Below, one piece after another: positions 55,510 through 60,053 of a DNA stretch of 64,000 nucleotides (within the stretch, counting starts at the first letter, position 1; every line of letters begins with the position of its first letter). This stretch comes from Cystobasidiomycetes sp. EMM_F5 (Eukaryota), in contig JBPGPT010000022.1 of NCBI GenBank assembly GCA_051047955.1, forward strand, positions 62,001-126,000, given 5' to 3'. Both the position numbers and the translations under genes were made by a program. Below the pieces are notes generated by a model. It did no database searches. It had not been told where the DNA came from and saw only the letters and a list, made by a program, of their open reading frames with translations.

Positions 55510-55759
55510 GCAATACTGCATGACCTAGACCTTATTCAGTGAGCATCCTTGTGTCGTGTAAAATATAGATGCTACGCATCGAGATTGTCTGTAGCTATAG
55601 AGATCAAACACGTCATCGACAGCGAACGCATGCGTGTCAGCTTTTTCGGTCGAGGCGTGGCAGCAAATTCGTTTTGTGCCCTGTGCTGCCGATTACTCCG
55701 ACTGGTGTGAACAACAACACATGTTTGAAATTCAAGCTACTTTGGCAACTAGCTAATTA

Positions 55760-57674
55760 TCACCGCACAGATAACGGCGGCTGCACCAACGGTATCCGCG
55801 TGACATCAAAGACTTCAGCTTTAAACGCTTCGAGATCTTCTGCTGCAATATCCTCCTCCTTCGGTATAGAGTCAGGATAGTCTCCTTGTCTCAATGTACT
55901 GGCAGTGTTTCCAAACGCAGACGCGGCTCCACCGAAGGCCGGCGTGCTCTTGCCAAAGGATGTCGTGCCAAATGCAGACTGTGATGGAGCGAATGCACTA
56001 CTTGATGTATTCCCGAAGGCCGTCTGGCCGAATGCAGAAGCTGAAGGGGTTGATGTTTTGTCAAATGCTATAGATTATGCTTAGCCGAAGTCTAGTGATA
56101 CAAACATGCGTATGATCAAACCTACCAGATGCTGTCTGAGCTGCGAATGCAGGAGCAGCAGGGGTTTGGGGTGTTGCCGAAGCTCCAAAGCCCGATGAGC
56201 CAAATGCCGGTTTCGTAGGTGTACTGGTACTGCCAAATGCGCTTGTTTGGCCAAACGCAGATTGCGGAGCAGTAGGAGCAGGATTGTTAAACGCTGAAGT
56301 TGCACTGATCATTGCCGGTGGTCCGAATGCCGATTTTGGGACCGCAGTCTGCCCGAATGCAGAAGTTGGCGCAGAGGTCTGACCAAAGGCAGAGGTAGGA
56401 GCTGAAGTTTGTCCAAAAGCGGATGGCTGCGATGCGCCGAATGCCGACGGTGTGCTCTGCTGCGTATTGCCTTAGATGTGCAATGTGTGAGCACAATCTA
56501 TTGTATAAAGTCAAGATAGGCCACCTACCGAAAGCTGAAAAGGATGTTCCGCCAAAGCCAGGCTTTGCTTGTGTAGAAGAAGTCGTACCGAAGGCAGATG
56601 GTGTCTGAGGGTTACCGAATGCCGAGGCCTGACCGAACGCAGATTTCGTAGCATTGCTGGCAAAGGCACCGAAAGCAGATGTGGTAGCCGGCTTTGCAAA
56701 AGCGCTTACACCCGCTGCGGGTGAGTTTGTCTGTCCGAAAGCACTTCCTCCAAACGCCGAGGGTTTGGATGTCTGCCCGAAAGCACTGACAGGTTGTGTG
56801 GAGGTGCTTCCGAAGGCTGATCCTCCGAATGATGTAGGCTGTTTACCGAATGCGCTGGTATTGTTACCAAACGCGGACACGACGGGCGGGGCAGCTTGCT
56901 GCGTGTGGGATTGACTTCTCGCGAAAGCTACCGCTTGATCTAGGTTGTTCAGTATGTTGTTGTATGCCGCAGTCACCTTTTCGTGGAGTGCATCCTCCGG
57001 CTGCGCAGAAGTAACAGAACAATTGACATTGGCTTACCGGGTCAGCGTGCACAGTTTACAAGACCTACATAAAGCGCCGGATTGTTTGCCAGTCGGGCCT
57101 CGTAGAACTTGGCTCGCAGCTCATCTTGAGACACATCCTCGTTGGCGATCAGGAGCTTTTCCCCTTTGGCCGGGCCGTACGAGGAGAAAGGCCACAGTGG
57201 TCGTTCTTCGGTCAGATCTTTGCGGATTGTGCTGGCGCTATTGTACGTGGAACGAGTCAGCAGCATCGATAGAATTGTCTGAATGCATCGCACTCGAATG
57301 CAGGCGCGGCGGGGGCAGAGGTGGCTGCCTTTAAATTAGCTGGCGTTCCTTTAGACCCTCCGCCGGGATGTTCGCTGCGAGAAGGGCGTCAGCAGAATGA
57401 TGTTGGGGCGAGGTTGCATAAAGCCGGCGTACTTCTGCAACGCCAAACATCAGCCTTTCTTTCCGGCAGACCGAGCAGAGTACTTGCAAAGCATTGGGAT
57501 CCATATTTGCAGTCTAGCAAGCGATGAATCACTCAGCAAAGACGGCTGAAGCGGTCAATTGCAATACTGACTGCCGCGAAGGTAGAACTGGCAGCTGCGG
57601 AGTGAGCGGGCAGTAGAGAGTCAGTCGGGACATCCTCATCAGCGCCATATCCAATATGCAGCGTACATTGCCAT
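55760..57674 (-). CDS. NUP42: FG nucleoporin Nup42/Amo1 (CG1/NUPL2-like) with N-terminal CCCH zinc finger, multi-exon
   Basis: Spliced N-terminus [23 protein letters not shown], then RPLWPFSSYGP...DVSQDELR, numerous SAFG/AFG repeats, and C-terminal LEAFKAEVFDVTRIPLVQPP (Gle1-binding-type tail). Confidence 0.9.
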
Positions 57675-57772
57675 TATAAAGCTTCAAGACATCCGTTTGA
57701 ATGGGTCCGAAGCTGACCTTTATCTGATTCAAATCGCAGCTCTCCATCCCGACAACCGGGACATCCGCCAGG

Positions 57773-60053
57773 ATGGACGTGGACGACGAGGACACTGCTG
57801 GCATACTGAGTCAAAATACGACGGGCGACCACAGTCTGGCTGGGTCGGGCATGTCGACCCCGGCTGGTCGAGGTGCCCGGACTCCGCACTTCAATATGAC
57901 CGCAATGACTACTGAATACTACACTGAGCGGGATGTGAACGGCGACGACGACGACGAGGATGACAGCCTATCGTTCCCCGGCAGTCCCAAGGCGGCCACG
58001 ACGCCCACGTTCAATCAGAGTTACGCCAACCTCAAGCGGACGCTGAGCTACAAGAGCCTTCGCGAGATTGAGCTCAAGCACGTCCAGGATCAGCTGTGGC
58101 GTAGAAAGAACGAGACGCGAAAAAGACCGAAAGATATCGAGCAACTAGCCATTTACGCGTGTTCGGCAGCCACTCGTGCGGTCGCGTTTATTGACAACAG
58201 ACAGACGACGCTGAGTAGTGCGACTGGACAGGCGCCTTCCTTCTTGGCTTTGGACTGAGAGCCGGCGTCAACCTCGTCACTACTCTGATCCGGCTCATTC
58301 AGAGAAGGTCGGTGCAGCAGAGCAGAGTTGACATTAGACAGCTGACCTTCCACAAAGAAAACTCGGCGTCCAGCTACTCCTGCACGCCATCTTTACCAAG
58401 GAATCTTTTCGCTTTGGTGGAATGTTTGGCAGTTTTGTAAATTGTAATACTGGCGCAACGGCAACATTAAGCTGATCCAATACGGGCCGCTCAAAGGTAT
58501 TCCTCTGGAAAGTCGCGCTGCACTTGCTTCGTATCTACAATCCAGGCTCCAAGGGCCGAAAGAGGACTGAAGGATGGCACGCTCCCGTAGCTGGAGCAAT
58601 ATCCGGATTGGCAATTTTAGCAGAAAGCACGAGAAATCGCGCAGGTATCGCGCAGCAGGTATTTGTGCGGTGCGTGCGAGCTGATTTGGCACGATGCCGA
58701 GCACCGCTCAAGTCGCTGCACAATTTCTAGTGGATTGCAGGGCTGGTATAATATTCTACATGCGCGAGGATACGTCAATATCCCACATGGTGACATCCTA
58801 TTATTCGGTCTATCATGTGGCCAAATCGTGAGTCCGAGTCGGGTTCCGCCAAGTCTGTGCTGACTCTAGCTGCAAAAGATGTACGCATGGCTTGTAGGTC
58901 TGACATCCTTGGCCCCTGGCACAGCTATATTGAGAATTCCACAAGGTCTCACCCGAAGCGCTCAACCCCGGCTATAATCAGTGGATACTAAACGCTTCGA
59001 AAGTTCCGGGACCTGTGCTACCTTGGGTTGTGGTGCGTAGCGTTGCGCAACGACAGCAGAAGCAGCTTCTGAAAGTGTACCGCAGGCGAGACATAAGCGC
59101 ACGAATGAGATGCCGCCGTTGGAGAGTGCATACAAAATCCTCTCACGGCGGGACGTGACGCCCATGAATGCTTTACGGATCGAGAAACTCATTGACGACT
59201 GCCAAAAAGGCGATTATGGCGTAGCCTTTCCTCCGTGGTAAGCACAATCTAATTCGTTCAATATTTCCGGAGACTTAAGACTGCCTTCAGTGAATTGGTT
59301 CATCCATGGCTTGACTCGTGCAGAGTGACACAGTTAACGCGCTGGCGTGATGTGTTTGGCTGGATCTTTCCCGTCTACGCCGCGCTACACTTCATACCGC
59401 CGATACTGCTTAAGCGCAAGCAATTCGCAAAAGCGTAAGCAAGGCAATGAGCATTCGCTCTCAAGCTAAGCACTAACGCTCGCACCACACAGGCCACTGC
59501 CTCAATTGCTACGAAGTTTGAAGGGCACGATTCGGTCATCTGCTTTCCTGAGCACCTTTGTCGTAATATTCCAAGCGCAAGTCTGCTTTCGCCATCAGAC
59601 TTGGGGCTTTGCACAAAAGCTGCCAAAGTATCTCCAAGCCCTGTGGCTGACAAAGTATTAGTAAGTTTCACTAAACAGCTTCAAGATTGCGCAAGCGGCT
59701 GAGCCTTTCGCTTCAGCTACTGGGTGATGGGACTTTCAACTTGCTTGTCGCTGTTCATCGAGGACAAGCGAAGGCGCGGAGAGCTGGCCATGTACGTTCT
59801 GCCTAAAGCGCTAGAATCTGCGTGGTCTATCGCTCGTCGAAGGGCGTATGTACCGTTCAGTACGTCCATCATACTTTCAAAGTGACAATTGAGCAAAAGA
59901 TCAAGGCTGAAAAGGTGACTCACAGTCCCTGCTGGCGAAGTCTTGCTCAGCTGCTCAGCTCTTTCGATGGCAATGAGTACTTATCAGCATGAGCCAGACA
60001 TGCTCTCCGGTCTGGTGCGCACTATTCTGTACCAACTTGTTGGACTGGATTAG
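57773..60053 (+). CDS. TMEM135-like (Tim17/PMP24-related) multi-pass membrane protein, many exons
   Basis: AFLLGFGLRAG, VAGAISGLAIL.E, HGDILLFGLSCGQIMYAW, HPWLDSC, PVYAALHFIP, RSSAFLSTF and IEDKRRRGELAMYVLPKALES. Confidence 0.82.

What the first reader, a model, noticed from the sequence alone, without database searches (positions are those of the whole stretch)
57375..57674. CCCH zinc finger of NUP42 assembled from 8-, 23-, 26- and 2-nt exons, including a GC-AG intron
Seen, minus strand: ATGGCAAT (57674-57667), then CTGCCAGTTCTACCTTCGCGGCA (57594-57572), then ACTGC...TGCTTT (57513-57488) ending at a non-canonical GCAAGT donor. Next is a 2-nt exon AA (57434-57433) flanked by TTGCAG and GTACGC with a GCTGAT branch site, then CGAACATCCC. 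Of the paths I tried, only this one gives [23 protein letters not shown], a perfect C-x7-C-x5-C-x3-H finger as known for Nup42/Amo1. Inference: a 2-nt internal exon is near the lower limit of spliceosomal exons, would be missed by most gene predictors, and its skipping would frameshift the gene, so it could act as a regulatory switch.
Basis: partly seen in the sequence, partly recalled or inferred. Interest (0 to 1): 0.75.

Follow-up and report, generated by a model that had tools for sequence, protein, structure and literature searches.

The report
Two-base exon in a yeast nucleoporin gene
A basidiomycete yeast gene for the nuclear-pore protein NUP42 most likely needs a two-base exon to encode its zinc finger, which the public gene model lacks, but such tiny exons are already known in related fungi.

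Summary
On the minus strand, 57674 to 55760 fits a nine-exon, 477-residue NUP42-type nucleoporin. It has an N-terminal CCCH finger, a conserved middle domain, 28 FG dipeptides and a C-terminal Gle1-binding-like motif.

Homology fixes the reading frame on both sides of the 113-nt gap 57487-57375, and the two frames differ by two bases. Only one route with GT/GC-AG borders keeps C-x3-H: a GC-AG intron of 53 nt, the exon AA (57434-57433), then a GT-AG intron of 58 nt. Each intron has a CTRAY branch motif.

A spliced alignment guided by 18 orthologue N-termini picks this route. AA plus C makes the Asn found in 57 of 58 related loci. Chance rarely gives such an arrangement (1 to 7 of 20000 shuffles).

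Missing evidence: no RNA run was listed, and no DNA of close relatives was reachable. In the 58 related loci the finger has no intron at this spot.

The public protein model starts inside intron 5 and lacks the finger. The "regulatory switch" idea has no support. Two-base exons are already catalogued in Coprinopsis (PMC12230235). This is a probable new member of a known kind, of modest interest.

The parts
57667..57674 (-). Coding part of exon 1 (ATGGCAAT). The start codon is 57674-57672, with A at -3 and G at +4.
   Evidence: Orthologues start M-x-[VI]-C.
57595..57666 (-). Intron 1, 72 nt, GTACGC...CAG
57572..57594 (-). Exon 2, 23 nt (first Cys to the Gly before the second Cys of the finger)
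57514..57571 (-). Intron 2, 58 nt, GTCAGT...TAG
57488..57513 (-). Exon 3, 26 nt (second and third Cys), ending ...TGCTTT
57435..57487 (-). Intron 3, 53 nt, with a GC-AG border (GCAAGT...TTGCAG). The CTGAT branch motif lies 15 nt from the 3' end.
   Evidence: Without GC donors the best path loses the His.
57433..57434 (-). Exon 4, the two bases AA. These are the first two bases of the Asn codon of the C-F-N-E-H-P stretch.
   Evidence: Inferred from homology and splice signals; no RNA evidence.
57375..57432 (-). Intron 4, 58 nt, GTACGC...CAG (the same donor hexamer as intron 1). The CTGAC branch motif lies 14 nt from the 3' end.
   Evidence: Reading through it hits a TGA (my reading).
57294..57374 (-). 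Exon 5, 81 nt (C + EHPGGG...APAAPAF + GA). Only one of its three frames is open.
   Evidence: The linker aligns with orthologue P0008.
57238..57293 (-). Intron 5, 56 nt, GTGCGA...TAG. It contains the ATG used by the public model.
57069..57237 (-). Exon 6, 169 nt: the conserved NUP42 middle domain (P0001)
   Evidence: 134 hits at E<=1e-3. JGI/IMG names hits P0005 and P0008 'nucleoporin NUP42'.
57001..57068 (-). Intron 6, 68 nt, GTAGGT...CAG
   Evidence: The public model has the same junction.
56529..57000 (-). Exon 7, 472 nt: start of the FG-repeat region
56471..56528 (-). Intron 7, 58 nt, GTAGGT...AAG
56126..56470 (-). Exon 8, 345 nt: FG repeats
56068..56125 (-). Intron 8, 58 nt, GTAGGT...TAG
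55760..56067 (-). Exon 9, 308 nt including the stop codon: last FG repeats and a C-terminal motif like the Gle1-binding peptide of human NUP42

Best explanation
The minus strand from 57674 to 55760 carries the NUP42 (hCG1/NUPL2-type) nucleoporin gene of a cystobasidiomycete yeast. It has nine exons and encodes 477 residues. The N-terminal CCCH zinc finger is cut by four short introns.

The Asn codon of the conserved C-x-N-E-H-P stretch is split three ways. Nothing of it lies in exon 3, its first two bases (AA) form an exon of their own, and its last base (C) opens exon 5. The intron upstream of AA has a GC-AG border with an otherwise strong donor (GCAAGT). The intron downstream has a GT-AG border and the same donor hexamer as intron 1.

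Inferred mechanism: in this intron-dense yeast each intron of about 55 nt is recognised across the intron. The acceptor of intron 3 and the donor of intron 4 are only 2 nt apart, so two spliceosomes cannot sit there at once. The two introns must therefore be removed one after the other, as was proposed for the 1-nt exon of Arabidopsis APC11.

Inclusion of AA is most likely constitutive, because the finger and the whole downstream frame depend on it.

Shown: the sequence, the signals, the frame requirement and the fit to orthologues. Inferred: that the mRNA really carries AA, and that the two introns are removed in sequence.
For: 1. Both frames are anchored by homology.
   - Upstream of the gap, M-A-I-C...G-S-Q-C-F fits a profile of 18 orthologue N-termini.
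   - Downstream, only one frame of exon 5 is open. It runs into the conserved exon 6 and aligns with orthologues.
   - The two frames differ by 2 nt.

   - It scored 41.0 bits net.
   - It was still the best path with penalties of 10 and 14 bits per intron.
   - The best paths without a GC donor (29.1) or without exons under 3 nt (30.8) lose the His or leave the conserved frame (and my reading of the sequence).

3. AA plus C gives Asn. Asn occupies this position in 12 of the 18 profile sequences and in 57 of 58 related metagenome loci, which hold 24 distinct peptides.

4. The full nine-exon model is 1434 nt, with its only stop at the end. It aligns from residue 1 to 477 with full-length orthologues, for example P0025 residues 1-539 at E 4e-77 and P0109 residues 1-470 at E 3e-65. 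In all, 27 alignments start within its first five residues.

5. The splice signals fit the rest of the gene.
   - Both flanking introns (53 and 58 nt) have CTRAY motifs 14-15 nt from the acceptor.
   - Both fall in the 53-72 nt range of the gene's other six introns.
   - A single intron across the gap would be 113 nt.

6. Chance is unlikely: 1 to 7 of 20000 shuffles of the gap reproduce the arrangement.

7. There is precedent in print.
   - 2-nt exons occur in Coprinopsis cinerea (PMC12230235).
   - The cDNA-verified bglA gene of Rhodotorula minuta has 10 microexons, introns of 55-69 nt and a GC-AG intron beside microexons (PMC9142197).
   - That R. minuta belongs to the Cystobasidiomycetes is recalled, not tested here.
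Against: - No transcript evidence: no RNA run was listed for the locus.
- The structure is not conserved in any DNA I could reach. Of the 58 related loci with a clear finger, 55 have an ATG-only first coding exon plus one 66-nt piece, 2 have one further intron elsewhere, and 1 has no intron. None has an intron in the Asn codon. These loci are only 35-60% identical in exon 6. The closest clade (P0004, P0005, P0014) had no locus in the collection.
- Two rare features, a GC donor and a 2-nt exon, are needed side by side.
- The donor GTACGC lacks the usual T at +6. Its excess among intron-like strings in the window (5 seen against 1.1 expected) comes from a scan that was not enriched overall (362 against 355), so it is weak support.
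- The public gene model does not use these exons. It was made without RNA data, as far as the genome note says.
Confidence: 0.8

Rival explanations
1. The finger exons are no longer used. The gene starts at a downstream ATG, as in the public model, and the upstream pieces are relics.
For: The public model (386 aa) starts at an ATG inside my intron 5. No RNA evidence shows otherwise.
Against: A relic would decay, yet here:

- all three Cys and the His are intact, along with four full sets of donor, branch and acceptor signals and a start codon in good context;
- the peptide scores 68.0 bits against the orthologue profile;
- all 58 related loci with enough upstream DNA and a clear result keep the finger.

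The public model's first ten residues come from intron sequence that includes the branch motif and the acceptor. It matched no Pfam family.
Confidence: 0.07
2. One intron with non-standard borders spans the whole gap, with no 2-nt exon. An AA-AG intron would give C-F-A-E-H-P, a GC-GC intron C-F-S-E-H-P, and a CA-CA intron C-F-G-E-H-P.
For: Each of these keeps C-x3-H and the frame (my reading). Position 20 is not invariant among orthologues (N 12, F 5, Y 1 of 18).
Against: - None of these border pairs is a known spliceosomal class.
- The intron would be 111-113 nt, against 53-72 nt for the others.
- The last six residues score 12.8 bits, against 19.4 for the Asn reading.
- This reading leaves the internal acceptor-AA-donor with two branch motifs unexplained (1-7 of 20000 shuffles).
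Confidence: 0.04
3. Sequence or assembly error. Without the GC at 57487-57486, exon 3 would end ...TGCTTTAA and a single GT-AG intron (GTACTC...CAG) would give the same protein.
For: Deleting two bases gives the same C-F-N-E-H-P without a microexon (my reading).
Against: - The donor GTACTC has no G at +5, and that intron would be 109 nt, about twice the usual length.
- The internal acceptor-AA-donor and its branch motifs would then be a coincidence.
- A Logan assembly contig encodes the same exon-6 ORF (P0002, 100% identical), but I could not read that contig's DNA at this site.
Confidence: 0.04
4. The 2-nt exon is real and its inclusion is regulated. Skipping it shifts the frame and lowers NUP42 output.
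For: Skipping AA gives a stop after 26 codons. A microexon switch has been reported in a filamentous fungus, Trichoderma Xlr2 (PMC11121469, abstract in the listing).
Against: Nothing in the sequence points to regulation, and no RNA data exist. The finger is kept in every related locus examined, which fits constitutive inclusion.
Confidence: 0.05

Closest known systems
2-nt and other exons of 3 nt or less in Coprinopsis cinerea (long-read annotation, PMC12230235; passages read)
   Same: Both are basidiomycete fungi with internal exons of 1-3 nt whose omission creates a premature stop. The paper lists 57 exons of 2 nt in 50 genes.
   Different: Those exons are backed by long-read cDNA; this one rests on homology and splice signals only. 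The lineage differs (Agaricomycetes against Cystobasidiomycetes), and the passages I read do not name NUP42. The paper's supplements were not opened.
1-nt exon of Fusarium CYP621A genes (PMC12940212; passages read)
   Same: In both cases a fungal ultra-short exon sits inside a conserved motif and is flanked by AG and GT. It was found because the frame cannot otherwise be kept and the apparent intron is about twice the usual length. Automatic annotation missed it.
   Different: That exon is 1 nt, is conserved in 20 orthologues and is confirmed in SRA reads. This one is 2 nt, is seen in a single genome, has no RNA support, and has a GC-AG intron on one side.
1-nt exon of Arabidopsis APC11 (PMC4674806; passages read)
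   Same: A constitutive ultra-short exon. The authors proposed stepwise removal of the two flanking introns, which is the mechanism I infer here.
   Different: It is a plant gene with experimental proof from reporter constructs.
bglA of Rhodotorula minuta and other basidiomycetous yeasts (PMC9142197; passages read)
   Same: Very intron-dense yeast genes with introns of about 60 nt, many microexons and one GC-AG intron next to microexons.
   Different: The smallest exon reported there is 6 bp (5 bp in Sirobasidium), and it is a different gene.
Human NUP42 (NUPL2/hCG1) and fungal C3H1-type orthologues
   Same: N-terminal C-x7-C-x5-C-x3-H finger, a conserved middle domain, FG repeats and a C-terminal motif. 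The best PDB matches of the C-terminus are the NUP42 peptides in 7TBL, 6B4J and 6B4F.
   Different: The C-terminal match is weak (E 0.13). Binding to Gle1 and location at the pore are untested.

Membership tests
NUP42 / hCG1-type nucleoporin | N-terminal CCCH (C-x7-C-x5-C-x3-H) zinc finger starting at residue 4 | tested here: met
   Met only through the spliced model. The pattern lies at residues 4-22, scores 68.0 bits against the profile of 18 orthologues and is the best spliced path. Orthologues P0008 and P0025 pass Pfam zf-CCCH / zf-CCCH_4. The joined peptide itself was not sent to Pfam.
NUP42 / hCG1-type nucleoporin | Conserved middle domain shared with proteins named NUP42 | tested here: met
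   Exon 6 (P0001) has 134 hits at E<=1e-3. Hits P0005 and P0008 are named 'nucleoporin NUP42' by JGI/IMG. The whole model aligns end to end with orthologues.
NUP42 / hCG1-type nucleoporin | FG repeats | tested here: met
   The model has 28 FG dipeptides, 21 of them as SAFG. Pfam Nucleoporin_FG scores only 17.7 bits on exon 7, below the 32.2 cut-off.
NUP42 / hCG1-type nucleoporin | C-terminal Gle1-binding motif | tested here: inconclusive
   The top three PDB sequence matches are NUP42 / Nucleoporin like 2 peptides (7tbl_f, 6b4j_C, 6b4f_C). They cover residues 74-102 of the last exon's translation, at E 0.13 and 16 bits.
Ultra-short (3 nt or less) spliceosomal exon | Flanked directly by an acceptor AG and a donor GT, each belonging to an intron with its own branch site and a normal length | tested here: met
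   TTGCAG|AA|GTACGC. The introns are 53 and 58 nt, with CTGAT and CTGAC 15 and 14 nt from the acceptors. Shuffles reproduce this 1-7 times in 20000.
Ultra-short (3 nt or less) spliceosomal exon | Needed to keep the frame and a conserved motif | tested here: met
   Skipping AA gives a stop after 26 codons. Paths without it lose the His or leave the frame.
Ultra-short (3 nt or less) spliceosomal exon | Present in mature mRNA | not testable with these tools
   No RNA run was listed, so read laying could not be used.
Ultra-short (3 nt or less) spliceosomal exon | Conserved in orthologous genes | tested here: not met
   None of the 58 related loci has an intron in this codon. All are distant (35-60% identity in exon 6). 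No DNA of closer relatives was reachable.
GC-AG intron | GC at +1/+2 with a strong remaining donor consensus, and an AG acceptor | tested here: met
   GCAAGT...TTGCAG. That GC donors usually show a strong consensus at +3 to +6 is recalled knowledge. In related locus L033 a GCAAGT donor sits where near-identical L043 has GTAAGT.

The most novel reading that the evidence does not exclude
The AA exon is real, and its two flanking introns must be removed in a fixed order, a form of recursive splicing that keeps 2 nt. On this reading the step is leaky or regulated. Skipping yields a 26-codon reading frame and transcript decay, so the yeast tunes its NUP42 level through a 2-nt exon beside a GC-AG intron.
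Probability: 0.06. Interest if true: 0.6.

Novelty: new member of a known kind. Interest (0 to 1): 0.3.

Why it matters
If the exon is real, the public protein for this gene is wrong. That model lacks the zinc finger, starts in an intron and carries an unrelated name. The gene would also be a clear example of how ab initio annotation fails on intron-dense basidiomycete yeasts.

It would add a 2-nt exon next to a GC-AG intron, inside a nearly invariant motif, to the short list of exons of 3 nt or less in fungi. That would be a handy test case for microexon-aware gene finders and for studying the order of intron removal.

It does not open a new kind of biology. Exons of 1-2 nt are already documented in Coprinopsis, Fusarium and plants.

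Tried and rejected
- **RNA evidence.** The look-up of sequencing runs on 55600-57800 listed no RNA holder, so no reads could be laid.
- **Whole genome.** None is held for this window.
- **Earlier notes of the scan.** Nothing was found by place or by words.
- **Word-index protein searches.** The search with exon 6 (longer proteins) scored no hit among 28 candidates. The search with residues 1-110 of the public model returned only a near-self ORF. The full HMMER search was what worked.
- **The search for related loci.** A 6-sequence alignment worked.
- **Closest relatives.** tblastn of the P0004, P0005 and P0014 clade against the 66 loci found no locus of that clade, so the intron layout of close relatives stays unknown.
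- **Path enumeration.** Brute-force enumeration timed out and was replaced by a counting recursion.
- **Unsupervised intron scan.** A scan of the window for intron-like strings was not enriched over shuffles (GT class 362 against 355; GC class 465 against 491). It says little beyond a small excess of some donor hexamers.
- **Origin by duplication.** I tested whether the AA exon arose by duplication of the exon 3 junction. The first alignment was invalid because the two stretches overlapped. The corrected one was not above chance: 588 of 3000 shuffles reached the observed score. Rejected.
- **Nested (twin) intron readings.** I found no order of removal that gives the in-frame mRNA without keeping AA (my reading).
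- **Donor at 57483.** Using the GT 4 nt downstream, with or without AA, runs into a stop within about 17 codons (my reading).
Full report
**Observation**

Reading 58200-55800 on the minus strand and extracting the pieces by coordinate confirms every element of the finding:

- ATGGCAAT at 57674-57667, followed by GTACGC;
- a 23-nt piece at 57594-57572, between CCGCAG and GTCAGT;
- a 26-nt piece at 57513-57488, between TTGCTAG and GCAAGT;
- AA at 57434-57433, between TTGCAG and GTACGC;
- CGAACATCCC from 57374, after TCGCAG.

CTGAT and CTGAC motifs lie 15 and 14 nt upstream of the two acceptors that flank AA.

**What the gene is**

The large exon downstream (57236-57069 in frame, P0001) matched no Pfam family. 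A full HMMER search of 1.84 billion representative proteins gave 134 hits at E<=1e-3, of which 9 were at E<=1e-10.

Of the 135 proteins then stored (the query plus 134 hits), 24 carry an N-terminal CCCH pattern of the form M-x-[VI]-C...C-[RK]-[FY]-G...C-x-N-E-H-P. A cluster look-up showed that JGI/IMG names two hits 'nucleoporin NUP42'. UniRef calls others 'C3H1-type domain-containing protein' (Coprinopsis marcescibilis, Pyrrhoderma noxium).

A nine-exon model built from the window is 1434 nt, with one stop at the very end, and encodes 477 residues. Its features are:

- the C-x7-C-x5-C-x3-H pattern at residues 4-22;
- 28 FG dipeptides, 21 of them as SAFG;
- end-to-end alignment with full-length orthologues: residues 1-477 against 1-539 of P0025 at E 4e-77, and against 1-470 of P0109 at E 3e-65;
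- 27 alignments that begin within its first five residues;
- a C-terminus whose best PDB sequence matches are the NUP42 / 'Nucleoporin like 2' peptides of 7TBL, 6B4J and 6B4F, though only weakly (E 0.13, 16 bits).

I file the gene as a NUP42-type nucleoporin. The Gle1-binding end is only suggested.

**Is the 2-nt exon needed?**

There are 217 open GT-AG paths from ATG 57674 to the exon 6 frame, and 260,934 if GC donors are allowed. The argument therefore has to rest on homology and on site quality.

*Frames.* Upstream, the three small exons spell [19 protein letters not shown]. Downstream, only one of the three frames of exon 5 (57374-57294) is open, as one search shows directly. That frame gives E-H-P-G-G-G...A-P-A-A-P-A-F and runs into exon 6, in line with orthologue P0008. 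The two frames are 2 nt apart.

*Profile-guided alignment.* I built a position profile from 18 orthologue N-termini, leaving out the window's own sequence. I then ran a spliced alignment that allowed any GT-AG or GC-AG intron of 40-250 nt and exons down to 1 nt.

- It stays the best path at penalties of 10 and 14.
- At penalties of 15 and 20 the aligner stops splicing after exon 3.
- Forbidding GC donors gives 29.1 bits and a peptide without the His.
- Forbidding exons under 3 nt gives 30.8 bits, by jumping to exon 6 in a frame that soon hits a stop.

*Single-intron alternatives.* Readings that keep C-x3-H with one intron need AA-AG, GC-GC or CA-CA borders. They score 12.8 bits over the last six residues, against 19.4 for C-F-N-E-H-P. 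Using the GT 4 nt downstream (57483), with or without AA, runs into stops.

**The residue made by AA**

AA plus the C of exon 5 gives Asn. Asn holds this position in 12 of the 18 profile sequences; the others have F (5) and Y (1).

As a further test on genomic DNA, the search for related loci returned 66 metagenome loci that encode relatives of exon 6.

- 4 loci had too little upstream DNA.
- 3 loci gave no path.
- 59 loci gave a path, and 58 of these scored at least 50 bits. L028 scored -2.6 and was set aside.
- Of the 58 loci, which hold 24 distinct peptides, 57 have Asn at that position and one has Tyr.

**Splice signals and chance**

All eight introns of the model are 53-72 nt long. The two around AA are 53 and 58 nt, whereas a single intron across the gap would be 113 nt. 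Intron 4 has the same donor hexamer as intron 1 (GTACGC). The GC donor reads GCAAGT, a full match to the usual donor consensus apart from the C (recalled knowledge).

A composite pattern of intron, 2 nt and intron occurs in the 64-kb window, both strands, only at this AA. Dinucleotide shuffles of the window gave a mean of 0.38, with 22 of 100 shuffles having at least one.

Within the 113-nt gap, 20000 shuffles of the interior gave:

| Condition | Shuffles |
|---|---|
| Any usable AG-NN-G[TC] | 3134 |
| NN = AA | 175 |
| Branch motifs in both halves and G at +5 | 7 |
| All of the above | 1 |

**What speaks against it**

- No RNA run was listed for this stretch, so the mRNA was never seen.
- The layout is not conserved in the DNA I could reach. 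Of the 58 loci, 55 have an intron directly after the ATG and then the whole finger in one piece, 2 have one more intron elsewhere, and L001 has none.
- These loci are distant (35-60% identity in exon 6).
- The closest protein clade (P0004, P0005, P0014; 48-61% identity) shares the positions of introns 5 and 6, judging by its read-through ORFs, but has no locus in the collection.
- The public protein for the same or a near-identical gene (KAL7005944.1, 386 aa, named 'Vacuolar protein sorting-associated protein 4') starts inside intron 5 and has no finger. It also matched no Pfam family.
- The genome note for the organism named on that record describes prediction with funannotate and BUSCO training. 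It does not contain the word RNA in its text (PMC12697161, passages).
- That note also says the isolate has no sister taxon among 27 class genomes, which fits the lack of close relatives here.

**Mechanism**

Shown: the signals, the frame requirement and the fit to orthologues.

Inferred: the acceptor of intron 3 and the donor of intron 4 are 2 nt apart, so both cannot be engaged at once. The introns must therefore be removed in sequence, each recognised across its own span of about 55 nt. This is the combined intron-definition and stepwise model proposed for the 1-nt exon of Arabidopsis APC11 (PMC4674806, passages).

Skipping AA gives a stop after 26 codons. Nothing suggests that skipping is used for regulation.

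**Comparison with what is known**

- Long-read annotation of Coprinopsis cinerea lists 13 exons of 1 nt, 57 of 2 nt (in 50 genes) and 27 of 3 nt (PMC12230235, passages).
- A 1-nt exon in Fusarium CYP621A genes was found by the same logic as here (a frame that cannot otherwise be kept, and an intron of double length) and was confirmed in SRA reads (PMC12940212, passages).
- Plants have conserved 1-nt exons in APC11 and VPS55 that annotations miss (PMC8831610, passages).
- The cDNA-verified bglA gene of Rhodotorula minuta has 22 exons, 10 of them under 30 bp, introns of 55-69 nt, and one GC-AG intron flanking microexons (PMC9142197, passages). That this yeast belongs to the Cystobasidiomycetes is recalled knowledge.
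- My search for '2-nt exon' and five similar phrases returned 31 papers, of which 25 were listed. None of the listed titles or abstracts concerns NUP42.

**Verdict**

The 2-nt exon beside a GC-AG intron is the best-supported reading, at about 0.8, but it rests on homology and splice signals alone. The public model should be extended by the finger exons. The switch idea is unsupported.

This is a new member of a known kind. It is useful for annotation and as a splicing test case, and of modest general interest.

Noticed in passing
window 56629-56790 (minus strand): The public model of this gene (P0136) removes an in-frame 162-nt stretch (54 residues) of FG repeat as an intron (GTCAGT...CAG). 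This is far longer than the gene's other introns (53-72 nt). It may be a prediction artefact or a real optional intron.
   Followed up: partly
L002-L065 (57 of the 58 loci with a clear finger); window 57667-57674: In the related loci an intron follows the ATG start codon directly, so the coding part of exon 1 is 3 nt. In the window the first intron lies 5 nt further in, and L001 has no intron in the finger. So the intron positions in this finger differ between lineages.
   Followed up: partly
L033:10-61 and L043:3749-3800: Two loci encode the same finger peptide but differ at the donor of the intron after the ATG: GCAAGT in L033 and GTAAGT in L043. This is a natural GT/GC exchange at one orthologous donor.
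   Followed up: no
window 57773-58258 (plus strand): A head-to-head neighbour ORF of 161 residues has its ATG only 98 nt from the NUP42 ATG, so the two genes share a very short divergent promoter region. It has no convincing Pfam family (best hit E 0.049).
   Followed up: partly
window 57263 region and the public record named: The public protein for this gene is named 'Vacuolar protein sorting-associated protein 4', yet its sequence is an FG nucleoporin. The name looks like a transfer error.
   Followed up: no
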